A stretch of DNA of 64,000 nt from Candidatus Binatia bacterium (GTDB taxonomy: Bacteria > Desulfobacterota > Binatia > UBA1149 > CAITLU01): contig DASPNH010000101.1 in the NCBI GenBank assembly GCA_035626675.1, positions 3,546-67,545 on the forward strand, written 5' to 3'. Shown here piece by piece: positions 11,260 through 46,918 of the stretch. How positions within the stretch are numbered: the stretch's first letter is position 1; each line of letters begins with the position of its first letter. The notes beneath the pieces were generated by a model that saw only the letters and a program-made list of their open reading frames with translations, had not been told where the DNA came from and searched no databases. Both the position numbers and the translations under genes were made by a program.

Positions 11260-11288
11260 TTGCCGGTAGCCGGTTCCGCACCTATAGT
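11260..11288 (+). promoter_or_regulatory. Sigma70-like promoter, TTGCCG-N17-TATAGT, giving a near-leaderless transcript of the AAA+ gene
   Basis: The -35 element is at 11260-11265, and the -10 at 11283-11288 follows a 17-nt spacer. The ATG at 11298 lies about 3 nt past the predicted transcription start. This is read by eye only. Confidence 0.35.
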
Positions 11289-11297
11289 GCGCGTTCG

Positions 11298-12704
11298 ATG
11301 ACCCGTCCCGCCACTCTCGCCGAGCTCCAGGCCAGCGGCTACCGCGCCCGCAGCGTCCGCGACGAGATGCGCGAGAACCTCCTGGCGGTCCTGACAGGCG
11401 AGGAGGGCGGCCGCTCGGTCTTTTCCGGCATCATCGGCTACGACGAGACGGTCATTCCCGAGATCGAGAACGCGGTGCTTTCGGGCCACCACATCGTCCT
11501 TCTCGGTGAGCGCGGCCAGGCCAAGACGCGGCTGATCCGCGCGCTCATGAACCTGCTCGACGAGGCCGTGCCGGCGGTGGCCGGCTGCGAGATCCACGAC
11601 GATCCGTTGGCGCCGGTGTGCGCGGCCTGCCGCCGCCGCGTTCCTGCCGAGGGCGGCGACCTGCCCATCGTCTGGATCGGTCGCGATGCGCGCTACGGCG
11701 AGAAGCTGGCCACCCCGGACGTCACCATTGCCGACCTGATCGGCGAGATCGACCCGGTCAAGATCGCCGAAGGCCGCTACCTCTCCGACGAGGAGGCCAT
11801 CCATTTCGGCATCGTCGCGCGCACGCATCGCGGCATCTTCGCCATCAACGAGCTGCCCGACCTTACCGAGAAGGTGCAGGTCGGCCTGTTCAATCTGATG
11901 GAAGAGCGCGACCTGCAGATCAAGGGACACAAGATGCGGCTGCCGCTCGACGTCGTCGTGGTGGCCACCGCCAATCCCGAGGATTACACGAGCCGCGGCC
12001 GCATCGTCACGCCGCTCAAGGACCGCTTCGACGTCCAGATCCGCACGCATTATCCGCGCACCATCGAGCAGGAGATCGCGATCATGGAGCAGGAAGTGTC
12101 GTGCGCCGATCGCAGCGGCCGGCCCGTGCGCGTTCCCGACTTCATGAAGGAAGTGGTCGCACGCACGACGATGGAGGCACGCAAGGCCCCGGAGGTGAAC
12201 CAGTCCTCGGGCGTCAGCGTGCGCGTCAGCATCAACAACTACGAGACGATCCTGGCCAACGCCGAGAAGCGCGCCGTGCGCTGCGGCGAGAGCGAGATCG
12301 TGCCGCGCATCAGCGACCTGCACGCGCTGTTCGCCTCCACCAACGGCAAGCTCGAGCTCGAGTACGGCCTGGACGCCGCCAAGGAGGCGGCAGTGGTCGA
12401 CCGCCTGCTGTCGGTGGCGGTCAAGCACGTCTTCGATTCGCGCCTGAGCCTGGCCCAGCTCCAGCCCATCCTCGAGTACATGGGGCAGGGATGGGGCGTG
12501 GCCGTCTCCGACACCATGCCTGCATCGGACTACCTCGAAGGCCTGGCTTCGATTCCGGGGCTGCGCGAGGTGATCGAGCATCTCGGCCCGGCCGAGAGCC
12601 CGGGCCTGACCGCATCCGCCATCGAGTTCGTCTTCGAGGGCCTGCATCTTCTCAAGAAGCTCAATCGGGAGCGCCAGGGAGGGCGCCTCTCCTACGCAGC
12701 CTGA
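11298..12704 (+). CDS. ChlI/BchI-like AAA+ ATPase (Mg-chelatase subunit I family), non-photosynthetic paralogue
   Basis: The 468-aa product aligns by eye to BchI. The Walker A region is GERGQAKT, and the Walker B position reads IFAINELPDL. Both are degenerate (Ala for Gly, Asn for Asp). The sensor and arginine-finger regions (VVVATANPE, PLKDRF) are retained. Confidence 0.8.
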   Translation: MTRPATLAELQASGYRARSVRDEMRENLLAVLTGEEGGRSVFSGIIGYDETVIPEIENAVLSGHHIVLLGERGQAKTRLIRALMNLLDEAVPAVAGCEIHDDPLAPVCAACRRRVPAEGGDLPIVWIGRDARYGEKLATPDVTIADLIGEIDPVKIAEGRYLSDEEAIHFGIVARTHRGIFAINELPDLTEKVQVGLFNLMEERDLQIKGHKMRLPLDVVVVATANPEDYTSRGRIVTPLKDRFDVQIRTHYPRTIEQEIAIMEQEVSCADRSGRPVRVPDFMKEVVARTTMEARKAPEVNQSSGVSVRVSINNYETILANAEKRAVRCGESEIVPRISDLHALFASTNGKLELEYGLDAAKEAAVVDRLLSVAVKHVFDSRLSLAQLQPILEYMGQGWGVAVSDTMPASDYLEGLASIPGLREVIEHLGPAESPGLTASAIEFVFEGLHLLKKLNRERQGGRLSYAA

Positions 12705-12731
12705 CGCGATGATCGCTTCGCAACAGCAGGT

Positions 12732-14324
12732 TTGAGCGTGCGCCTACGCTACACAGTCTGGGACGGAACCCAGACCGTCCGCCTCGATCCCGATACCGTC
12801 TTCGAGCGCCTGGCCGAGCATCTCGGCTCCAGCGACGACGTCGGCGAAGCGCTCGACCGTCTGCTTCGCGAAGGCATGGCGGGCGAGGAATTCGAGGTCG
12901 TCGGCATCGACGAGCTGGCCGAGAAGGTTCGCGAGGCCATCGAGGAGTTTCACAACAAGTACAACCTGGAGCGGTCGCTCGAGCAGCCCTGGGGCGAGCT
13001 CGACGAGGTCACCGGCATGGAGCAGGAGGCCACCGAGCGGATGCCTCCGGGCGAGAAGAGGCGCCGCCGCCAGGAGGACATGGAGGGGCTCTCGCGGATC
13101 CTCGAAGAGGCCCTGCTGCAGATGTCGCGCTGGCCGTTCGACGACGAGGATGCGCGCTCGGCTTTCGAGCAGCTCTCCGATCGCGGTGACGACATCCGCA
13201 AGGTCGAGCGTTTCCAGCGCCGCTACCGCGATCAGTTCCACGGCCCCGACAGTCTCGACTTCGAGCAGACCCTGGAGATGCTCGACGTCTACGAGCGGCT
13301 GCGCGAGCTCGAGCGCGCGCTTCGCGAGCGTGACTTCGAGAACGTCGACCCCGCTTCGGTGCGCGAGTTGCTGGGGCAGGAGATGGCCGAGCAGATCGCG
13401 CGGCTGCAGCAGCTGGCGCGGGCGCTGACCGACGCAGGCTATGTGGTCAGCAAGGGAGGACGCTACGTCCTGTCGCCCAAGGGCGCACGCCGACTGGGAC
13501 AGATCGCACTGCGCGAGATCCTGCACGATCTGCTCGCGGATGCCTCGGGCCGTCACGACACGCGCAGGCGCGGTGCCAGCGACATGCACACCGAGGACGC
13601 CAAGCCCTACGAGTTCGGCGACCCGTTCGTGCTCGACGTTGCCGCCACCGTTCGCTCCGCACTGACGCGCGCGTCGGGCACGCCCGTGTCGATCCGGGCC
13701 GCCGACCTGCACGTCAAGGAGAGCCACCGCACCACGCGCACCGCCACCGTGCTGCTCCTGGACATGAGCTGGTCGATGAGCTGGGAGGGACGCTTCGCCG
13801 CCGCCAAGAAGGTCGCGCTGGCGATGGAGACGCTGATGCGCACGCGTTTCCCGCGTGACTATTTCGGTCTGGTCGGGTTCTACACGCGCGCCGTCGAGCT
13901 GCGTCCATCCGATCTTGCCGAGGTCACCTGGAACATGGGCGACCCCTTCACCAACCTGCAGGACGGTCTTCGCCTGGGTGCCGAGCTGCTCTCGCGCCAC
14001 CCGGCGGCCAGTCAGCAGATGATCGTCATCACCGACGGCCAGCCCACCGCCTATTTCCACGAGGGCCGTCTGTTCTGCGAATGGCCGATGAGCATCGGCG
14101 GCCTGTCCACGCGGGCGACGGTGGAGACGCTCAAGGAGGTCGAGCGCGTCACGCGGCGCGGCGTGCGCATCAACACCTTCATGCTGGACGACAGCCCGCC
14201 GCTGCGCTCTTTCGTGCAGCGCATGACCGCCATCAACAAGGGCCGTGCCTTCTACACCACGCCCGATCAGCTCGGGCGCTTCGTCCTGGTCGACTACGTG
14301 GCCAAGCGGCGCAAGATCGTATGA
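12732..14324 (+). CDS. VWA-domain protein, CoxE-like or ChlD-like C-terminal von Willebrand factor A domain
   Basis: The 530-aa product has an acidic helical N-terminal half. The C-terminal VWA domain has the MIDAS motif DMSWSMS, then ITDGQPT. The gene starts with TTG, and its stop overlaps the mutS ATG. Confidence 0.8.
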   Translation: MSVRLRYTVWDGTQTVRLDPDTVFERLAEHLGSSDDVGEALDRLLREGMAGEEFEVVGIDELAEKVREAIEEFHNKYNLERSLEQPWGELDEVTGMEQEATERMPPGEKRRRRQEDMEGLSRILEEALLQMSRWPFDDEDARSAFEQLSDRGDDIRKVERFQRRYRDQFHGPDSLDFEQTLEMLDVYERLRELERALRERDFENVDPASVRELLGQEMAEQIARLQQLARALTDAGYVVSKGGRYVLSPKGARRLGQIALREILHDLLADASGRHDTRRRGASDMHTEDAKPYEFGDPFVLDVAATVRSALTRASGTPVSIRAADLHVKESHRTTRTATVLLLDMSWSMSWEGRFAAAKKVALAMETLMRTRFPRDYFGLVGFYTRAVELRPSDLAEVTWNMGDPFTNLQDGLRLGAELLSRHPAASQQMIVITDGQPTAYFHEGRLFCEWPMSIGGLSTRATVETLKEVERVTRRGVRINTFMLDDSPPLRSFVQRMTAINKGRAFYTTPDQLGRFVLVDYVAKRRKIV

Positions 14325-17005
14325 CGACGGCCGCGCGGGGAAGCGAGACGCAGACCACGACGGGCAGGGCGCTGTGGCAGGGCAAGCTGACGCCCGCCAT
14401 GCAGCAGTACCTGGAGGTCAAGTCTCGTCACGAGGATTCGCTCGTGTTCTTTCGCATGGGCGACTTCTACGAGATGTTCTTCGAAGACGCCGAGCAGGCA
14501 GCCGAGCTCCTGGACCTGACGCTGACCTCGCGCAATCGCAACGACGAGCATCCCATCCCGATGTGTGGCGTGCCGTATCATTCTGTGCGTCCCTACGTCG
14601 CGCGCCTGCTGGAGGCCGGTCGCAAGGTCGCGATCTGCGAGCAGCTCGATCCGCCCGAGAAAGGTGCGCTGGTGCGCCGCGAGGTCACGCGCATCATCTC
14701 GCCGGGCACCAACCTGGACGAGGAGAGCCTGGCGCCCGAGCGCGCCAACTTCCTTGCCGCCGTGGTTGCAGTTGCGGGTGGCGGTCATGGCATCGCCATC
14801 ACCGACTTCTCCACGGGCGAGGTTCGCACGACCGAGGTCGCATCCTTCCAGGCGCTGGCAGAAGAGCTGGCCGCTGCCGCACCAAGCGAAGTCGTCCTGC
14901 GCCAGGGCGAGTCGCAGGCGCTGGTCGATCAGCTGCGCGCGGCCTTGCCGGGATGCCTGGTCGGCTCGACGCGGGAGACCGGTAGCGACGCGGTCGGCGC
15001 ATCGCGCCGCGAGGGCACAGGGGCGTCACGCGACGAAGGCGCCGGCGGATCGCGCGAGGATGCCGCTGCGCGCCAGGTCACCGGTGCGACAGACGCCGCG
15101 CAGGCTGCCTGCGACCTGCTGCGCGCCTACGTGGCTGCCACACAGGGCGGAAACGTCTCGCATCTTCGCGAGCCGGTGCAGTACGACGCCTCCGCCTTTC
15201 TGCATCTGGATGCGGCCACGCGTCGCAATCTGGAGATCCTCGAGTCCTACGACGGCAGCAGGGCCAATGCGCTCGTGGCAGTGCTGGACCGCTGCGCCAC
15301 CGGCATGGGCAAGCGCGCACTGCGCGGCTACCTGGTGCGTCCGCTGGCCGACCTGTCCGCCATCGGCGCGCGCCTGTCGGTGGTCGAGGCCCTGGTCGAG
15401 GACTATTCGCTGCGCGCCGATCTTCGCGAGTCGCTGCGTCGGATCGGCGATCTGGAGCGCCTGCTCGGCCGCATCGGCGCCGGCACCTCGGGGCCGCGCG
15501 ACGTCGCTCGTCTGGCCGATGCGCTCGCGCTCGTCGATCTGCTGCGCACGCGCCTTGCCGGCGCGCAGCGTGCCGATGTCCTGGCGGCTGTCGCGAGGGA
15601 CCTGGATGCGCTGCCGGCTCTTGCCGAGCGCATTCGCACGACGCTGGTGGACGAGCCGGCGGCGATGGTGGGCAAGGGCGAGGTGATTCGCAGCGGCCAC
15701 CACGAAGAGGTCGACCGTCTGCGCTCGATCAGCCGCGACGGCAAGGGATGGATCGTCGCGTTCGAAGCCGAAGAGCGTGCGCGCACCGGAATCGGCTCGC
15801 TCAAGGTCGGCTTCAACAAGGTGTTCGGCTACTACATCGAGATCACGCGGGCCAACCAGCACCTGGCGCCCGTCTCGTACACACGCAAGCAGACGGTGGC
15901 CAACGCCGAGCGCTACATCACGCCCGAGCTCAAGGCGCGCGAGAACGAAGTGCTCGGTGCGGAGGAGCGTCTTGCGGCGCTGGAAACGCATCTTCTACGC
16001 GAGCTCGTCTGCGAGATCGCGCCGCTGCAGCCGAGCCTCGGTCGCACCGCCGCCGCGCTGGCCGCGCTCGATGCGCTGGCCGGGCTTGCCGAGGTCGCGC
16101 ATCAGCGCGGATACGTGCGTCCACAAATGTGCGAGAGCGGCGACCTCGAGATCGTCGGCGGCCGCCACCCCGTCGTCGAGGCACGACTCGGCGGCACCTT
16201 CGTCCCCAACGACTGCCGGCTCGGAATGGATTCGCGCCTGCTGATGGTCATCACCGGACCGAACATGGCCGGCAAGTCGACCTACCTGCGGCAGGTGGCG
16301 CTCATCGCGCTGCTGGCGCACTGCGGCTCTTTCGTCCCTGCCACCGCCGCGCGCGTGCCGCTGGTCGACCGGATCTTCACGCGCATCGGGGCCAGCGACA
16401 ATCTCGCCGCCGGTCAGTCCACCTTCATGGTCGAGATGAGCGAGACCGCCGCCATCCTGCGCGACATGACCGAGCGCAGCCTGGTCGTGCTCGACGAGAT
16501 CGGACGCGGCACCTCGACCTTCGACGGGATCTCGATTGCCTGGGCGGTGGCCGAGGCCATGGGCAAGGCCAGGGCCAAGACGCTCTTCGCCACGCACTAT
16601 CACGAGCTGGCGGCCCTGGAAGCCGAGCACGATCACGTCCAGAACTTCTCGGTGGCGGTGCGGCGCTACAAGGGCGGGGTGATTTTCCTGTACCGCATCG
16701 TTCCGGGGCCGACCAGTGGCAGCTTCGGCATCGAGGTGGCGCGCCTTGCCGGCGTTCCCGACCCCGTCATCGAAAAGGCCCGTTCAATTTTGGCCAGGTT
16801 CGAGAGCGGTCACGGTATCGGCGGGACAACCGCCAGCCAGCTCAGTCTTTTCTCCTCGGCGCGCGCGGCCAGCCGCAGCGCTGCTGCCGAAGCCGGCGAG
16901 GCTTTCGCCGCGCGTGTCGCCGCCATCGATGCCGATGCGCTGACGCCGCTGGAAGCGCTCAACCTGCTCGCACGCCTTGTGGAGGAGGCGAAGGCGGCGC
17001 AATAA
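14321..17005 (+). CDS. mutS: DNA mismatch repair protein MutS
   Basis: The mismatch-binding N-terminus reads FYEMFFEDAE. The Walker A is GPNMAGKST, with DEIGRGTST and the C-terminal helix-turn-helix. The ATG at 14321 overlaps the VWA stop. Confidence 0.93.
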   Translation: MTTAARGSETQTTTGRALWQGKLTPAMQQYLEVKSRHEDSLVFFRMGDFYEMFFEDAEQAAELLDLTLTSRNRNDEHPIPMCGVPYHSVRPYVARLLEAGRKVAICEQLDPPEKGALVRREVTRIISPGTNLDEESLAPERANFLAAVVAVAGGGHGIAITDFSTGEVRTTEVASFQALAEELAAAAPSEVVLRQGESQALVDQLRAALPGCLVGSTRETGSDAVGASRREGTGASRDEGAGGSREDAAARQVTGATDAAQAACDLLRAYVAATQGGNVSHLREPVQYDASAFLHLDAATRRNLEILESYDGSRANALVAVLDRCATGMGKRALRGYLVRPLADLSAIGARLSVVEALVEDYSLRADLRESLRRIGDLERLLGRIGAGTSGPRDVARLADALALVDLLRTRLAGAQRADVLAAVARDLDALPALAERIRTTLVDEPAAMVGKGEVIRSGHHEEVDRLRSISRDGKGWIVAFEAEERARTGIGSLKVGFNKVFGYYIEITRANQHLAPVSYTRKQTVANAERYITPELKARENEVLGAEERLAALETHLLRELVCEIAPLQPSLGRTAAALAALDALAGLAEVAHQRGYVRPQMCESGDLEIVGGRHPVVEARLGGTFVPNDCRLGMDSRLLMVITGPNMAGKSTYLRQVALIALLAHCGSFVPATAARVPLVDRIFTRIGASDNLAAGQSTFMVEMSETAAILRDMTERSLVVLDEIGRGTSTFDGISIAWAVAEAMGKARAKTLFATHYHELAALEAEHDHVQNFSVAVRRYKGGVIFLYRIVPGPTSGSFGIEVARLAGVPDPVIEKARSILARFESGHGIGGTTASQLSLFSSARAASRSAAAEAGEAFAARVAAIDADALTPLEALNLLARLVEEAKAAQ

Positions 17006-26347: not shown

Positions 26348-26356
26348 ATCGGTGGC

Positions 26357-28708
26357 ATGGCTGACGCCAACGCCTACGAGATGAGCGCCGACAGGCCGCA
26401 TCGCGATCCGGTCTGCGGGATGAGCGTGGCCGCGGACTCGCCGCGGCGAGTCGAACACGGCGGCCAGACCTACTTCTTCTGCTCCGACAAATGCGCGGCG
26501 CGCTTTCGCGACGATCCGCAGGCGTTCCTGGATCCGCAGCGCGTCGAAGAGGCACGCCGTCAGCAATCGGCGGCCGCAGCGGCCGGTGCCACCTTCACCT
26601 GCCCCATGCATCCCGAAATCGTGCGCGACGCGCCAGGGCCATGCCCGCTTTGCGGAATGGCGCTGGAGCCGGTGATGCCCACCGCCGAGGAGGACGACGG
26701 CGAGCTGCGCGACATGAGCAGGCGCCTGGCCATATCGTCGGTCCTCGCCGGCGCCGTGCTGGTTCTTGCGATGGGACACATGCTTCCGCTCGGCGCTCTC
26801 GCGCACGCGCTGGCAGGAAGCTGGCGGGTGTGGGCCGAAGCGGCTCTGGCCACTCCCGTATGCCTGTGGGCTGCCTGGCCGTTCTACCAGCGCGCGCTCG
26901 CATCGGTGACTGCACGCAGCCCCAACATGTTCACGCTGATCGGCATCGGCGTGGCCGTTGCTTACGTGTTCAGCCTGGTCGCCGCGCTGGCTCCTGACAT
27001 CTTTCCGCCTGCCTTCCGCGACGAACATGGCCAGGTCGGCGTCTATTTCGAGGCCGCTGCCGTCATCGTCGCACTGGTTCTGCTAGGGCAGGTGCTCGAG
27101 CTTCGTGCGCGCAGCCGCACCGGGCACGCCATCCGCGCCCTCCTGCGTCTGGCGCCGCAGACGGCACGCCGTGTATCGGCAGACGGCCGCGAGCAGGACG
27201 TCGCGCTTTCGGAAGTGCATGCGGGCGACGTGCTGCGCGTGCGGCCCGGCGACAAGATTCCCGTCGATGGCGTGGTCGTGGAAGGAAGCAGCTACGTCGA
27301 CGAGTCGATGATCACCGGCGAGCCCGAGCCGGTGGCGAAGAGGAGCGAGGACCGCGTCGTCGGTGCCACCGTCAACGGCAGCGGCACGCTGCTGATGCGA
27401 GCCGAGAAGGTCGGGAGCGAGACTCTGCTCGCGCGCATCATCGACATGGTGGCGCAGGCGCAGCGCAGCCGCGCGCCGATCCAGCGCCTGGCCGATCGCG
27501 TCGCGGCCTGGTTCGTGCCGGCGGTGATGGCGGCTGCCGCAGCGACGTTTCTGATCTGGGCAAGCGTGGGGCCGCCGCCGGCCCTGGCGCATGCGCTGGT
27601 CAGCGCGGTCTCGGTTCTCATCATCGCCTGTCCGTGTGCGCTCGGGCTGGCGACTCCCCTTTCGATCATGGTGGCGATGGGACGGGGCGCGTCGTCGGGA
27701 ATCTTGTTCCGAAACGCCGAGGCCATCGAGGCGCTGCGACGCGTGGATACCGTCGTCGTCGACAAGACGGGTACGCTGACCGCGGGCAAGCCGGCGGTGG
27801 TCGGCGTCGAGCCCGCACCGCCGCTCGGCGAGGACGACCTGATCGCGATGGCTGCGGCCGTCGAGCGGGGCAGCGAACATCCCATTGCCGCGGCCATCGT
27901 TGCAGCGGCCAACGAGCGTGGGATCGCCGTGCCCGCGTTCGACGGCTTCACGGCGGTGGCGGGCAAGGGCGTGATGGCCAGGGTCCAGGGAGCACGCGTG
28001 CTGCTCGGCACGGCAGCATTCCTGCACGAGCACGACGTCGAGGTGCCCGGTCGTGTCGAGCAACGTGCCGCCACGCGGCGCACCAGCGGCGAGACCGTGC
28101 TCTTCGTTGCGCGCGGCAGGGAGCTTTGTGGTCTGATCGGAGTTGCCGATCCGCTCAAGCACGGCAGCGCTGCCGCGGTGGCGGCGCTGCGGGAGGAGGG
28201 CATGCGTGTGCTGATGCTCACCGGCGACAGCCGCGCCACCGGCGAGGCGGTCGCGCGAGCCGTGGGCATCGACGAAGTCCTGGCCGAAGTCCTGCCCGAG
28301 CAGAAGCGCGATGCGATCGTGGGACTACAGCGCCAGGGCCGCGTGGTGGCCATGGCCGGCGACGGCATCAACGATGCGCCGGCGCTGGCGCAGGCCGACG
28401 TCGGCATCGCGATGGGAACCGGCACCGACGTGGCCATGGAGAGCGCCGACGTCACGCTGGTGCAGGGGGATCTTCGCGGCATCGCGCGTGCACGGCGCCT
28501 GAGCCAGGCCACGGTGATCAACATCCGTCAAAACCTGCTGTTCGCGTTCGGCTACAACGCCCTCGGCATACCGGTGGCGGCGGGCGCCCTGTATCCGCTG
28601 CTCGGATGGCTGCTCAGTCCGATGCTGGCCGCAGCCGCCATGAGCCTGAGCTCGGTGTCGGTGATCGCCAATGCGCTGCGTCTTTCTCGAACTCGCATCG
28701 ATTCGTGA
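26357..28708 (+). CDS. copA: Copper/heavy-metal translocating P1B-type ATPase
   Basis: The N-terminus holds two Cys-motif metal-binding modules (CGMSV...FCSDKC and CPMHPE...CPLCGM). Transmembrane CPC is present, with the phosphorylation site DKTGTLT, the HP motif and [10 protein letters not shown]. Confidence 0.9.
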
Positions 28709-28839: not shown

Positions 28840-28916
28840 CGCGGGGTGGAGCAGTCTGGTAGCTCGGCGGGCTCATAACCCGCAGGTCGGAGGTTCAAAT
28901 CCTCCCCCCGCACCCA
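28840..28916 (+). tRNA. Initiator tRNA-fMet, anticodon CAT
   Basis: Over the acceptor, D and anticodon arms the sequence nearly matches E. coli tRNA-fMet (CGCGGGGTGGAGCAG..GGCTCATAACCCG). It has the initiator C1:A72 mismatch and three G:C pairs in the anticodon stem. CCA is encoded, and a T-tract (CGTTTTTT) follows the 3' end. Confidence 0.9.
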
Positions 28917-39746: not shown

Positions 39747-40790
39747 CTAGCCGCCGAGCTGGTACATCTGGATTTTTTCGCGTTCGCGGCCCCCGGCGGC
39801 GAAGCGGTCTTCGGAGTAGCGGTCCTCGCGGGCGGTCCAGACGCTGCGCAGGAGCGCGCGCAGCTCGTCGTCGCTGGCTCCGCTTCGCATCGGGGTTTTC
39901 AGGTCCGTGCCGCCCGTGGCGAACAGGCACGTGACCAGCTTGCCGTCGGTGGTCAGGCGCGCGCGCGTGCAGTCGCCGCAAAACGGCTGCGTCACCGATG
40001 CGATGACGCCGATCTCCCCATTGTCGTCCAGGTAGCGCCAGCGCCGCGCAACTTCGCCGCGATAGGTTGCCGCCACCGGCTCGAGCGCGAACTGCGCACC
40101 GATGCGCCCCACGATCTCGCGCGCGCTGACGACTTCGCTGGCGTCCCAGCCGTTGAGCGTCCCCACGTCCATGTACTCGATGAAGCGCACGATGTGGCCG
40201 CTGCCGCGGAAGTGACGGGCGAGGTCGACGATGGTGTGGTCGTTGACGCCGCGCTGCACCACACAGTTGATCTTGATCGGCGAGAGGCCGGCCGCGCGCG
40301 CGGCCTCGATCGCATCGAGCACGAGCTGGGGTTTGGCGTCGCGGCCGGCCATTCGGCCGAACACCGCATCGTCGAGGCTGTCGAGGCTGACGGTGATGCG
40401 CTTCAGACCTGCGGCCGCGAGCGTAGAGGCCTGCTCCGCAAGCAGCACGCCGTTGGTGGTCAGGGTCAGGTCGGCCACGCCCTCGATGCCGCTCAATGCC
40501 CGGATCAGCGCGGGCAGGTTCGTGCGCACCAGAGGCTCGCCACCGGTCAGGCGGATCTTGACGGCCCCGGCCTCGACGAACAGCCGCGTCAGGCGCTCGA
40601 TCTCCTCGAAGCTCAGCAGGTCGGCCTTGGGCAGGAAATGGTAGCGCTCGCCGTAAATCTCGGCGGGCATGCAGTAGGGGCAGCGGAAGTTGCAGCGGTC
40701 CGTGACCGAGATGCGCAGATCGCGCAGCGGCCGGCCGCGCGTGTCGAGCATGCGTGGTGAGGCCTGGTTCGTGGCGTCCTGCTCGCCCAT
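39747..40790 (-). CDS. moaA: GTP 3',8-cyclase (molybdenum cofactor biosynthesis, radical SAM)
   Basis: The radical-SAM motif is CNFRCPYC and the C-terminal cluster motif is CGDCTRARLTTDG. The start is ATG 40790 or the longer form at 40826. Confidence 0.9.
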   Translation of the reverse strand: MGEQDATNQASPRMLDTRGRPLRDLRISVTDRCNFRCPYCMPAEIYGERYHFLPKADLLSFEEIERLTRLFVEAGAVKIRLTGGEPLVRTNLPALIRALSGIEGVADLTLTTNGVLLAEQASTLAAAGLKRITVSLDSLDDAVFGRMAGRDAKPQLVLDAIEAARAAGLSPIKINCVVQRGVNDHTIVDLARHFRGSGHIVRFIEYMDVGTLNGWDASEVVSAREIVGRIGAQFALEPVAATYRGEVARRWRYLDDNGEIGVIASVTQPFCGDCTRARLTTDGKLVTCLFATGGTDLKTPMRSGASDDELRALLRSVWTAREDRYSEDRFAAGGREREKIQMYQLGG

Positions 40791-40876
40791 GCGGGCATCA
40801 TGGTCGGGGACGCAGCGGGAGTCCATTGCGCCACGCGCGGCTTGTCCGCCGCCACCCGCAGGACTATGCAGGAGCC

Positions 40877-41416
40877 ATGGAACGACTCGATCTGACCCGC
40901 GACACCGAGGCCGTACGCATTCCGATGGGCGACCGGATCCAACTCGCCAAGGGCACCGAGGTCTACGTCACCCAGTCTCTCGGCGGAACCTTTACCGTGC
41001 AGGCTCCTGCCTACGGCGGACTCTTTCGCATCGCGGGCCTGGACGCGGACGCGCTGGGCAAGGAGATTCCCGAAGAGGCTCGCATGCTGGCCAGCGGCGA
41101 GGGCCCCATCGAGGATCTGGTCACCGCCGCGCTCAAGACGTGCTACGACCCGGAGATCCCGGTCAACATCATCGACCTCGGGCTGGTCTACGATACGCGT
41201 ATCACCGATGCCGGCGAGGGCAGGCACCGCGTCGACGTCAAGATGACGCTCACCGCAACCGGCTGCGGCATGGGCACCTCGATCGCCGGCGATGCCGAGG
41301 AAAAGATCCGCAGCATTCCGGGTGTCGCCGAGGCGCATGTCGGAATCGTGTGGGATCCGCCGTGGAACCCGCAGATGATCTCCGAGGAAGGCCGCCGCAA
41401 ACTCGGAATCGGCTGA
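40877..41416 (+). CDS. DUF59 (MIP18/SufT-like) Fe-S assembly-related protein with an N-terminal extension
   Basis: The C-terminal segment CYDPEIPVNIIDLGLVY...TATGCGMG resembles DUF59. A ribosome-binding site precedes ATG 40877. Confidence 0.6.
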   Translation: MERLDLTRDTEAVRIPMGDRIQLAKGTEVYVTQSLGGTFTVQAPAYGGLFRIAGLDADALGKEIPEEARMLASGEGPIEDLVTAALKTCYDPEIPVNIIDLGLVYDTRITDAGEGRHRVDVKMTLTATGCGMGTSIAGDAEEKIRSIPGVAEAHVGIVWDPPWNPQMISEEGRRKLGIG

Positions 41417-43998: not shown

Positions 43999-44373
43999 AT
44001 GTTTGTCGTCACCAATCGCATTCCGGTGGCCGCGGGTCACGAGGCCGACTTCGAGGAGCGGTTTCGCAAGCGCGCCCACCTGATCGACCGCAGCCCGGGG
44101 TTCGTCAAGAACCTCATCCTGAAGCCCGTGCAGCGTCGATTCGATCACGCCACCGGGGGCTGGAAGGAATCGGCCGAACAGGGCTACTACCTCGTGCAGA
44201 CCTACTGGGAGTCGGAACAGGCGTTCTGGGACTGGACCCAGAGCGAGAGCTTCCGTATCGCCCATTCCAATCGGCCGCCGGCCGAGATGTTCGCCGGCCC
44301 CAACGTCCTCGAGATCCATCAAGTCATCCAGACGACCGAATCTGCCGGGCATACCCCGGCGGCGGAAAACTGA
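43999..44373 (+). CDS. ABM-domain (antibiotic biosynthesis monooxygenase-like) protein
   Basis: This 124-aa protein shows a ferredoxin-like ABM fold pattern, and the secreted-protein gene follows immediately. Confidence 0.55.
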   Translation: MFVVTNRIPVAAGHEADFEERFRKRAHLIDRSPGFVKNLILKPVQRRFDHATGGWKESAEQGYYLVQTYWESEQAFWDWTQSESFRIAHSNRPPAEMFAGPNVLEIHQVIQTTESAGHTPAAEN

Positions 44374-44380
44374 CGGTAGA

Positions 44381-46918
<2,538 letters not shown>

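What the first reader, a model, noticed from the sequence alone, without database searches (positions are those of the whole stretch)
11260..17005. Uncharacterised ChlI-like AAA+ ATPase plus CoxE-like VWA pair, with degenerate ATPase motifs, forming an operon with mutS
The AAA+ protein (11298-12704) aligns with magnesium-chelatase subunit I. Its Walker A reads GERGQAKT, with Ala where the conserved Gly precedes the Lys. The Walker B position reads FAINE, with Asn in place of the metal-coordinating Asp. The arginine-finger and sensor regions are still present. A 530-aa partner follows 27 nt downstream. Its C-terminus is a VWA domain with an intact MIDAS motif (DMSWSMS, then TDG). Its N-terminal half is acidic and helical, with no AAA fold, so it is not a bona fide ChlD. 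The VWA gene stop overlaps the mutS ATG (ATGA at 14321-14324), which implies co-transcription and translational coupling with mismatch repair. A near-leaderless promoter (TTGCCG-N17-TATAGT) sits directly upstream. AAA+/VWA pairs such as BchI/BchD, CobS/CobT, CoxD/CoxE, NorQ/NorD and CbbQ/CbbO act as metal-insertion or remodelling chaperones. This ChlI-type, non-photosynthetic pair has no assigned function. Its hard link to mutS is not something I know to be described.
Basis: partly seen in the sequence, partly recalled or inferred. Interest (0 to 1): 0.62.

Follow-up and report, generated by a model that had tools for sequence, protein, structure and literature searches.

The report
Rv0958/Rv0959-type AAA+/VWA pair beside mutS
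This is a Binatota copy of a widespread, still uncharacterised two-gene ATPase-plus-adaptor module (the Rv0958/Rv0959 type of mycobacteria); its unusual ATPase motif is a trait of the whole family, and its position next to mutS is gene order inherited within one phylum rather than evidence of a role in mismatch repair.

Summary
The sequence-level observation holds. The window has an AAA+ gene (11298-12704), a VWA/MIDAS partner (12738 or 12732-14324), and mutS starting at 14321 inside an ATGA overlap. A sigma-70-like promoter sits directly upstream.

The pair belongs to a very large, catalogued but uncharacterised family, the Rv0958/Rv0959 type. The partner's orthologues carry Pfam Rv0959_3rd and Mb0984_helical.

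The "degenerate" motifs are not decay:
- Walker B Asn-Glu occurs in 118/120 close homologues and 101/102 distant representatives.
- Walker A alternates Ala and Gly between close relatives.
- The other catalytic residues are conserved.

The mutS link is confined to Binatota. It is part of a collinear housekeeping block: rpsA-HU-HIT-AAA-VWA-mutS-amidase-glnD. Adjacency is ancestral there and has eroded in one derived clade. Of 58 informative loci, 30 are adjacent, 8 have mutS nearby, and 20 have none.

None of 78 non-Binatota loci (613 kb of flanks) has mutS. These include Thermomicrobium, three actinomycetes and the FCB group. No third gene recurs with the pair.

The best reading is a ChlI-related motor with a MIDAS adaptor that works like NorQ/NorD on an unknown client. 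Interest is modest.

The parts
11260..11288 (+). Sigma-70-like promoter TTGCCG-N17-TATAGT. Its -10 element ends 9 nt before the AAA+ ATG, which implies a leaderless or near-leaderless mRNA.
   Evidence: The consensus scan found it. The motif is conserved in register in orthologous loci, even where the upstream genes differ (alignment A6). TTGNNN-N16-18-TANNNT occurs in 27/80 Binatota loci against 2% of random 130-nt windows, and a start codon lies 6-11 nt after the -10 in 16 of the 27.
11298..12704 (+). AAA+ ATPase of 468 aa, ChlI/BchI-related, Rv0958 type. Walker A GERGQAKT is at nt 11505-11528. Walker B IFAINEL is at nt 11835-11855 (N184-E185). Sensor 1 is N226, sensor 2 is R309, and there is an extra C-terminal helical domain.
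   Evidence: Pfam AAA_5, Mg_chelatase and AAA_3 give weak hits. The NCBIfam chelatase models score far below their cut-offs. PDB phmmer gives ChlI at 1.3e-9 over residues 42-310 and LonB at 2.6e-8. More than 8000 homologous clusters exist, and the top 120 are 66-100% identical.
12738..14324 (+). VWA/MIDAS partner of 528 aa (alternative start TTG 12732, 530 aa), Rv0959 type. It has an acidic helical N-domain (about residues 18-266), a disordered linker (264-284) and a VWA domain (286-528). MIDAS DMSWS is at nt 13761-13775, T405 is within nt 13944-13958, and D433 is within nt 14028-14045.
14321..14324 (+). ATGA overlap: the mutS start codon overlaps the VWA gene's stop codon.
   Evidence: Read directly from the sequence. 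In 28 Binatota loci with adjacent mutS, a start that overlaps by 4 nt is available in 11. The rest have gaps of 0-66 nt, except L054, where no candidate start was found.
14321..17005 (+). mutS (MutS1, 894 aa). It is a neighbour in the same co-directional array, not shown to be a functional part of the pair.
   Evidence: All five MutS Pfam domains are present. NCBIfam MutS equivalogs score 975 and 945 bits, above their cut-offs.

Best explanation
The two genes are the Binatota orthologues of a widespread two-gene module of unknown client, typified by M. tuberculosis Rv0958/Rv0959.

Inferred mechanism, by analogy with NorQ/NorD, CbbQ/CbbO and BchI/BchD:
- The ChlI-related AAA+ protein forms a ring ATPase.
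- The ring grips and pulls on its partner.
- The partner has an N-terminal domain, a flexible linker and a VWA domain. It uses its MIDAS-bound metal ion to dock onto an acidic residue of a client protein.
- The client is then remodelled, possibly to let a cofactor in.

The Asn-Glu Walker B is a fixed trait of the family, not decay, so the protein is probably a working ATPase, perhaps a slow one.

In this genome the pair has its own leaderless-type promoter and is probably co-transcribed with mutS, and perhaps with amidase, glnD and xerC. That adjacency is gene order inherited within Binatota and does not indicate a role in mismatch repair.

Shown: the identity of the genes and motifs, family membership, the distribution of the mutS linkage, and the VWA fold. 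Inferred: hexamer formation, ATPase activity, the adaptor mechanism and co-transcription. Unknown: the client.
For: Family identity:
- Partner orthologues carry Rv0959_3rd and Mb0984_helical.
- The AAA+ protein is 46-48% identical over its full length to actinomycete genes. In Tsukamurella the gene lies in the purN-purH neighbourhood. Placing Rv0958 itself after purN-purH (Rv0956-Rv0957) rests on my own knowledge of the M. tuberculosis map.
- AAA+ and VWA are adjacent in 83/83 Binatota loci. They are the only recurring genes in 78 other loci.

Motifs as a family trait:
- FAINE-type Walker B is found in 118/120 close homologues and 101/102 representatives.
- Walker A is Ala in 74 and Gly in 45 of the close set.
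- K76, E185, sensor 1, the Arg region and sensor 2 are conserved in close orthologues. Across the deep alignment K76 is invariant and E185 and R309 are nearly so.

Adaptor architecture: the model shows a helical N-domain, a disordered linker and a VWA domain. This is the same layout described for NorD (PMC9976466). The VWA domain matches NorD in NorQD complexes. MIDAS is invariant.

mutS link is lineage-specific:
- In Binatota, 30 loci are adjacent, 8 have mutS nearby and 20 have none.
- The whole rpsA-HU-HIT...mutS-amidase-glnD block is collinear.
- The tree shows one ancestral state that eroded in one clade.
- There are 0 MutS hits in 613 kb around 78 non-Binatota loci.
- mutS is also absent next to the pair in Thermomicrobium, the actinomycetes and the FCB group.

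The promoter is conserved.
Against: - No experiment exists on any member. The only data are that MSMEG_5512 co-purified with RNA polymerase after cross-linking, without detectable DNA association (PMC7092591).
- A Walker B Asp-to-Asn change normally weakens Mg-ATP handling, so real ATPase activity is not assured.
- The AAA+ model is poor in its core (pLDDT below 50 for residues 133-242). Fold matches are only generic AAA+ with E > 1e-3.
- The tight, often overlapping VWA-mutS junction persists through deep Binatota divergence, down to about 65% AAA+ identity. This is compatible with some selective benefit of co-expression.
Confidence: 0.7

Rival explanations
1. The pair is functionally coupled to mismatch repair in Binatota. 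For example, it could be a remodeller that loads, recycles or removes MutS or its clamps, and this would explain the translationally coupled junction.
For: The ATGA overlap is in the window. Adjacency occurs in 30 loci, and a start that overlaps by 4 nt is available in 11 of 28. Adjacency is retained in all basal Binatota clades. VWA domains do occur in eukaryotic repair factors such as Ku80 and TFIIH p34/p44, but those are only generic fold matches.
Against: The linkage has a single evolutionary origin and was lost in 20 loci of one clade. It is absent from all 78 non-Binatota loci. The family thrives in actinomycetes, which by established knowledge lack MutS/MutL. mutS is equally tightly followed by unrelated genes: amidase_3 after 12 nt and glnD after a further 12 nt. 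The upstream rpsA-HU-HIT linkage is even more constant than the mutS linkage.
Confidence: 0.07
2. The AAA+ protein is a catalytically dead pseudo-ATPase, acting as a nucleotide-binding scaffold or switch, because the metal-coordinating Walker B Asp has been replaced.
For: Asn replaces Asp family-wide. By established knowledge, such substitutions usually impair hydrolysis.
Against: The catalytic Glu, Walker A Lys and sensor 2 Arg are conserved to about 35-40% identity, and the rest of the catalytic set is conserved among close orthologues. Sequence conservation is very high, at 65-90% within the phylum. This is what a working active site would look like. Rare members carry DE or QE at this position, which suggests the position tolerates a metal-binding carboxylate or amide.
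Confidence: 0.12
3. It is a genuine magnesium or cobalt chelatase I/D pair, as JGI's name 'magnesium chelatase subunit I' implies, with the large BchH/CobN subunit encoded elsewhere.
For: ChlI is the best solved relative. TIGR02442, TIGR02031 and TIGR02030 are the best NCBIfam hits. The Binatota survey paper lists bchI among pigment genes (PMC8262859).
Against: Scores are about one-tenth or less of the family cut-offs: 51 against 779, 45 against 500 and 38 against 467. The partner lacks the AAA-like N-domain of BchD. No CobN/BchH was found among the 20 window ORFs scanned beyond the immediate neighbourhood. None was found among the recurring neighbours in 78 loci. The family is common in non-phototrophic actinomycetes and the FCB group.
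Confidence: 0.03
4. It is a sigma-54-dependent transcriptional activator, as NCBI names several members.
For: There is a partial Pfam Sigma54_activat hit of 26 bits over residues 169-227. RefSeq uses this name for the Thermomicrobium and Tsukamurella members. MSMEG_5512 co-purified with RNA polymerase.
Against: There is no GAFTGA motif. No DNA-binding domain was detected. The hit covers only 59 of 168 profile positions around Walker B. No DNA association was seen in M. smegmatis.
Confidence: 0.02

Closest known systems
M. tuberculosis Rv0958 / Rv0959 (M. smegmatis MSMEG_5512 and its neighbour); Pfam PF27098 Rv0959_3rd and PF27532 Mb0984_helical
   Same: It is the same two-gene module. The AAA+ protein is about 46-48% identical to actinomycete orthologues over its full length and shares the Asn-Glu Walker B. 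The partner carries the same Pfam signatures and a MIDAS VWA domain. The genes are adjacent and co-directional.
   Different: The partner is shorter here: 528 aa, against about 660-700 aa in actinomycetes and Thermomicrobium and about 365 aa in the FCB group. The genomic context also differs. Binatota has rpsA-HU-HIT upstream and mutS downstream, whereas Tsukamurella has the pair in the purN-purH neighbourhood. No function is known for either.
NorQ / NorD (MoxR-type AAA+ with a VWA partner; non-haem iron insertion into nitric oxide reductase)
   Same: A single-module AAA+ motor is paired with a partner built as N-domain, disordered linker and C-terminal MIDAS VWA. The VWA domain matches NorD structurally (9qh6_G, 9qh8_G). 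The layout is as described in PMC9976466 and PMC13036017.
   Different: The motor here is ChlI-like rather than CbbQ/NorQ-like. It is longer (468 aa against about 270 aa), has an extra C-terminal helical domain and has Asn-Glu in Walker B. There is no nor genes context, and the client is unknown.
BchI/ChlI + BchD/ChlD magnesium chelatase
   Same: This is the closest solved sequence relative of the motor (8osf ChlI, E 1.3e-9, residues 42-310). The partner's VWA aligns to the C-terminal part of the chelatase D-type model TIGR02442.
   Different: Scores lie far below the equivalog cut-offs. Walker B is NE, not DE. The partner has no AAA-like N-domain. No H subunit is nearby.

Membership tests
Rv0958/Rv0959-type AAA+/VWA module | The partner protein carries the Rv0959_3rd (PF27098) and Mb0984_helical (PF27532) signatures together with a VWA domain. 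| tested here: met
   Precomputed Pfam hits exist on the 90%-identical orthologue P0388 and on nearly all of the 120 best hits, and on the called genes of L001 and L003. The local Pfam copy lacks these models, so the window protein itself shows only VWA_2.
Rv0958/Rv0959-type AAA+/VWA module | The AAA+ gene is immediately followed, co-directionally, by the VWA gene. | tested here: met
   This holds in 83/83 Binatota loci, in Thermomicrobium and the actinomycetes, and in 48 of 78 mixed loci, many of which are truncated.
Rv0958/Rv0959-type AAA+/VWA module | The AAA+ protein is orthologous to the actinomycete gene that lies next to purN-purH. | tested here: met
   tblastn gives 46-48% identity over 97-99% of the query. 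The Tsukamurella locus shows purN-purH upstream. The equation with Rv0958 itself rests on the Pfam names and on PMC7092591.
BchI/ChlI magnesium chelatase subunit I | Score above the curated equivalog cut-off (TIGR02030). | tested here: not met
   38.2 bits against a cut-off of 466.95.
BchI/ChlI magnesium chelatase subunit I | A partner D subunit with an N-terminal AAA-like domain, and an H (CobN/BchH) subunit. | tested here: not met
   The partner's N-half is helical with no AAA hit. No CobN-type protein was found among the 20 window ORFs scanned or among recurring neighbours. The rest of the genome could not be examined.
MoxR-class AAA+ / VWA chaperone pairs (NorQD, CbbQO, RavA-ViaA) | A MoxR-type AAA+ domain. 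| tested here: inconclusive
   AAA_5 scores 36 bits and AAA_3 scores 30 bits, both just above cut-off and only over the C-terminal half of the domain. bpMoxR is below its cut-off. ChlI and LonB are the best solved relatives.
MoxR-class AAA+ / VWA chaperone pairs (NorQD, CbbQO, RavA-ViaA) | A partner with a complete MIDAS (DxSxS...T...D) in a VWA fold. | tested here: met
MoxR-class AAA+ / VWA chaperone pairs (NorQD, CbbQO, RavA-ViaA) | A VWA 'finger' inserted into the pore of the hexamer, and ATP-driven remodelling of a client. | not testable with these tools
   A conserved, poorly modelled loop YFHEGRLFCEWPMSIGG (residues 439-455) is a candidate only.
CoxE-type VWA (Pfam VWA_CoxE) | A match to the family profile. 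| tested here: not met
   There is no hit at E <= 0.01. Only VWA_2 passes.
Sigma-54 enhancer-binding proteins | A GAFTGA loop and a DNA-binding domain. | tested here: not met
   There is no GAFTGA. The profile match covers only 59 residues.
MutS1 mismatch-repair protein (the neighbour) | Five MutS domains and a score above the equivalog cut-off. | tested here: met

The most novel reading that the evidence does not exclude
The Rv0958/Rv0959 module may be a housekeeping remodeller of a nucleic-acid-associated machine. In Binatota it is kept in one transcription unit with mutS because MutS, or a complex it meets on DNA, is among its clients. The family-wide Asn-Glu Walker B would then reflect an unusual, slow, switch-like ATPase cycle.
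Probability: 0.06. Interest if true: 0.7.

Novelty: new member of a known kind. Interest (0 to 1): 0.3.

Why it matters
The specific claim, a hard link to mismatch repair, would have been notable, but it does not survive comparison across lineages.

What remains is useful in three ways:

1. The family is very large, with 3633 clusters at 50% identity, and very conserved. It is a two-gene AAA+/MIDAS module found in Binatota, Actinomycetota (including M. tuberculosis), Thermomicrobia and the FCB group. No client or function is known. Its fixed Asn-Glu Walker B is a clean, testable biochemical oddity.

2. Public annotation of the family is inconsistent. It is called 'magnesium chelatase subunit I', 'sigma 54-interacting transcriptional regulator' and 'AAA family ATPase'. 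This can mislead pathway reconstructions, and may have contributed to the bacteriochlorophyll gene list reported for Binatota.

3. The conserved leaderless-type promoter gives a rare sequence-level view of transcription initiation in an uncultured phylum.

Tried and rejected
- **Anti-phage defence system:** PADLOC gave nothing meaningful.
- **Known RNA elements:** Rfam found only a tRNA-Met far from the locus.
- **Terminator or promoter between the VWA gene and mutS:** none was found. The one terminator-like site on the + strand lies inside mutS (14429-14446), and the total number of such sites does not exceed the shuffle expectation.
- **Fold search with the AAA+ model:** the model is poor in the core, and only generic AAA+ matches with E > 1e-3 came back. 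I do not use it beyond 'AAA+ fold'.
- **afdb50 fold library:** not available.
- **A conserved third gene as a clue to the client:** clustering of neighbours in 78 non-Binatota loci gave only the two genes themselves plus antisense artefacts. The next clusters reach 10 loci or fewer.
- **Literature on Rv0958, Rv0959 and MSMEG_5512:** only screen tables and one AP-MS study, with no functional work.
- **Plasmid collection:** it yielded 4 hits. By size and gene content, most appear to be chromosome or chromid-scale records filed as plasmids.

Full report
**1. What is in the sequence**

The window is a 65-71% G+C contig. It comes from a Candidatus Binatia metagenome-assembled genome: the AAA+ protein is 100% identical to an NCBI entry of that name (P0001).

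- An AAA+ gene at 11298-12704 (468 aa).
- A VWA gene ending at 14324.
- mutS, whose ATG at 14321 overlaps the VWA stop codon (ATGA).

No other start codon is available for mutS between that ATG and the beginning of MutS domain I.

The VWA gene's start is ambiguous. The ORF listing gives TTG 12732 (530 aa). GTG 12738 (528 aa) sits 8 nt after an AGCAGG and matches the 528-aa product called in the 91%-identical locus L001.

All quoted motifs are present:
- Walker A GERGQAKT.
- Walker B FAINE.
- Sensor 1 ATANPED.
- An Arg-rich SRGRIVTPLKDRF segment.
- Sensor 2 SVR.
- MIDAS DMSWS, then T405 and D433.

The partner's first 266 residues have pI 4.7, while its VWA domain has pI 9.6.

**2. What the proteins are**

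The AAA+ protein gives weak, partial hits to AAA_5, Mg_chelatase, AAA_3 and Sigma54_activat. Its scores against the chelatase equivalogs are far below their cut-offs. BchI/ChlI scores 38 against 467, BchD scores 45 against 500, and the putative cobaltochelatase model scores 51 against 779.

Its best solved relatives by sequence are cyanobacterial ChlI (E 1.3e-9, residues 42-310) and archaeal LonB. 'ChlI-like' is therefore right at the superfamily level, but the protein is not a chelatase subunit by the curated criteria.

The partner hits only VWA_2, not VWA_CoxE.

The decisive clue came from precomputed Pfam annotation of orthologues. These carry PF27098 'Rv0959_3rd' and PF27532 'Mb0984_helical'. 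tblastn also finds the AAA+ protein at 46-48% identity over its full length in Tsukamurella, Nocardia and Nonomuraea. In Tsukamurella the gene lies downstream of purN-purH. From my own knowledge of the M. tuberculosis map, Rv0958 follows purN-purH (Rv0956-Rv0957). The pair is therefore the Rv0958/Rv0959 module.

The family is very large. More than 8000 90%-identity clusters score at E <= 1e-10. There are 3633 50%-identity clusters at E <= 1e-3 and 681 at E <= 1e-30.

Named members come from:
- Binatia, plus records labelled Limnocylindria/Limnocylindrales, Gaiellaceae and Hyphomicrobiaceae; some of these MAG labels are doubtful (see section 4).
- Thermomicrobium and actinomycetes.
- Eisenbacteria, Ignavibacteriota, Bacteroidota and Calditrichota.

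**3. The 'degenerate' motifs**

Among the 120 closest homologues, Walker A reads GERGQAK[ST] in 74 and G[ERAT]RGQGK[ST] in 45. The Ala and Gly therefore alternate between near relatives. Walker B reads [ILV]FA[IV]NE in 118 of 120.

Among the 150 most similar 50%-identity representatives, Asn occupies the Walker B position in 101 of 102 recognisable motifs. A deep alignment reaching 35-40% identity still shows NE, with rare DE, QE or DD exceptions.

In that deep alignment K76 is invariant, and E185 and the sensor 2 Arg (R309) are nearly invariant. Sensor 1 N226 and the Arg segment are invariant among the close orthologues.

So the Asn is a hallmark of the family under strong purifying selection. 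It is not a lesion in this gene.

From my own knowledge, Ala before the Walker A Lys also occurs in active MoxR ATPases such as E. coli RavA (GPPGIAKS). Whether Asn-Glu supports normal hydrolysis cannot be decided by computation.

**4. The mutS linkage**

A scan of one genome per species returned 80 loci (L004-L083). Despite varied MAG labels, essentially all carry the same collinear block: rpsA-HU-HIT-(LapA-domain)-AAA-VWA. They therefore represent one lineage, Binatota.

AAA and VWA are adjacent in 83 of 83 loci. The position of mutS varies:

| State of mutS | Loci |
|---|---|
| Immediately downstream | 30 |
| 0.4-4.8 kb downstream, same strand | 8 |
| Absent despite >= 3 kb of downstream sequence | 20 |
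| Locus too short to judge | 25 |

Wherever mutS is present and enough sequence follows, it is in turn followed by amidase_3 and/or glnD.

On a neighbour-joining tree of the AAA+ proteins, the adjacent state fills all basal Binatota clades. The 'nearby' and 'absent' states fall almost entirely in one derived clade. This pattern indicates one ancestral arrangement that later eroded by insertion and relocation.

Where the genes are adjacent the junction is tight. A start that overlaps by 4 nt is available in 11 of 28 loci, and most of the rest have gaps of 0-66 nt.

Outside Binatota I found no linkage at all:
- The Thermomicrobium roseum megaplasmid.
- Three actinomycetes.
- Three FCB-group contexts.
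- 71 further metagenome loci seeded with a distant representative.

Together these are 78 loci with 613 kb of flanking sequence and zero MutS hits at E <= 1e-3. The only MutS hits in that scan were in two contigs that carry the Binatota block (L104 and L130).

By established knowledge, mycobacteria and their relatives lack MutS/MutL altogether, yet they keep the module.

Clustering all neighbours of the 78 loci showed that only the AAA+ gene (78 loci) and the VWA partner (48 loci, median 662 aa) recur. No third gene exceeds 10 loci, apart from antisense artefacts.

That criterion is met, although the adjacency is old and stable within the lineage rather than random.

**5. Transcription**

The predicted promoter TTGCCG-N17-TATAGT (11260-11288) is one of only two sigma-70-like sites in 8 kb, against 0.3 expected.

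Aligning the upstream regions of ten orthologous loci shows GTTGCC...CTATAGTG conserved in register while the surrounding sequence is not. This includes L001, where two extra genes lie upstream.

Across the 80 loci with enough upstream sequence (of the 83 Binatota loci held), a TTGNNN-N16-18-TANNNT match lies just upstream of the AAA+ start in 27. The background rate is 2% of random 130-nt windows. A start codon follows 6-11 nt after the -10 in 16 of the 27.

This supports a real promoter that produces a leaderless or nearly leaderless mRNA.

Downstream, the genes run on with very short gaps or overlaps:

| Junction | Gap or overlap |
|---|---|
| VWA to mutS | 4-nt overlap |
| mutS to amidase_3 | 12-nt gap |
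| amidase_3 to glnD | 12-nt gap |
| glnD to xerC-like | no more than a few nt (start not fixed) |

If mutS is co-transcribed with the pair, several unrelated housekeeping genes probably are too. This weakens any functional inference drawn from co-transcription.

**6. Structure and likely mechanism**

The partner model has mean pLDDT 80. It shows four parts:
- A helical N-domain (residues 18-233).
- A beta-hairpin plus helix (236-266).
- A disordered linker (264-284).
- A VWA domain (286-528).

The layout of N-domain, disordered linker and MIDAS-VWA is the one described for NorD. In NorD a VWA 'finger' enters the NorQ pore. The MIDAS site is needed for action on the client but not for binding the motor. 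ATP hydrolysis remodels the linker (PMC9976466; PMC13036017).

A strictly conserved, poorly modelled loop, YFHEGRLFCEWPMSIGG (residues 439-455), could be the analogous finger. This is inference only.

The AAA+ model is unreliable in its core.

I therefore propose that the pair works like NorQ/NorD, CbbQ/CbbO or BchI/BchD, as a ring motor plus a MIDAS adaptor that remodels a client. The client is unknown.

The only experimental hint is that MSMEG_5512 was recovered with cross-linked RNA polymerase but showed no DNA association (PMC7092591).

**7. Verdict**

It is an uncharacterised ChlI-related AAA+/VWA pair, but its motifs are family traits and its link to mutS is inherited Binatota gene order.
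- It is a new member of a catalogued but functionally unknown kind.
- Interest is modest. It rests on the family as a whole rather than on this locus.

Noticed in passing
window 11298-12704; PMC8262859: The Binatota survey paper lists 'bchI (Mg-chelatase)' among bacteriochlorophyll genes said to be ubiquitous in the phylum; the term search of that paper found no mention of bchD or bchH. JGI names this Rv0958-type family 'magnesium chelatase subunit I', yet it scores 38 bits against the BchI equivalog cut-off of 467. The reported bchI may be this gene mis-called.
   Followed up: partly
L004-L083 (record titles): Contigs labelled Deltaproteobacteria, Myxococcales, Polyangiaceae, Syntrophobacter, Thermodesulfobacteriota, Verrucomicrobiia, Limnocylindria, Acidiferrales and Terriglobales nearly all carry the same rpsA-HU-HIT-AAA-VWA block as Binatia. 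Many of these MAG taxonomic labels are probably outdated or wrong.
   Followed up: partly
window 11586-11630 (AAA+ residues 97-111): A Cys triad, C97...C108xxC111, sits in an insert after Walker A. It is nearly invariant in Binatota orthologues and present in several distant clades, but is replaced by Ser and other residues in P0026 and P0045. It may be a metal or redox site.
   Followed up: no
window 14052-14102 (VWA residues 439-455): The loop YFHEGRLFCEWPMSIGG inside the VWA domain is strictly conserved, with C447, E448, W449, P450, G454 and G455 invariant. It is modelled with low confidence. It is a candidate for a pore-inserting finger like that of NorD.
   Followed up: no
L084, L085, L088-L091, L116 compared with window 12738-14324: Partner length differs by clade. 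It is about 365 aa in the FCB group (Rv0959_3rd plus VWA only), 528 aa in Binatota, and about 660-700 aa in actinomycetes, Thermomicrobium and many soil metagenome loci. In Eisenbacteria three unrelated genes separate the AAA+ and VWA genes.
   Followed up: partly
window about 15220-15360 (MutS residues about 300-345): MutS carries a low-complexity insert rich in Gly, Ala, Ser and Arg (…GSDAVGASRREGTGASRDEGAGGSREDAAARQ…) at about the domain II/III boundary (residue 299 on).
   Followed up: no
window 44123-46915 (+): A 931-codon ORF with coding-like GC3 (0.84) has no Pfam family at E <= 1e-5.
   Followed up: no
window 26348-28705 (+), 28840-28916 (+), 39750-40967 (-): Other content of the window includes a P-type heavy-metal ATPase with YHS and HMBD domains, a tRNA-Met (CAT), and a MoaA-type radical SAM gene. 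No CobN/BchH-type gene was seen among the 20 ORFs scanned.
   Followed up: no
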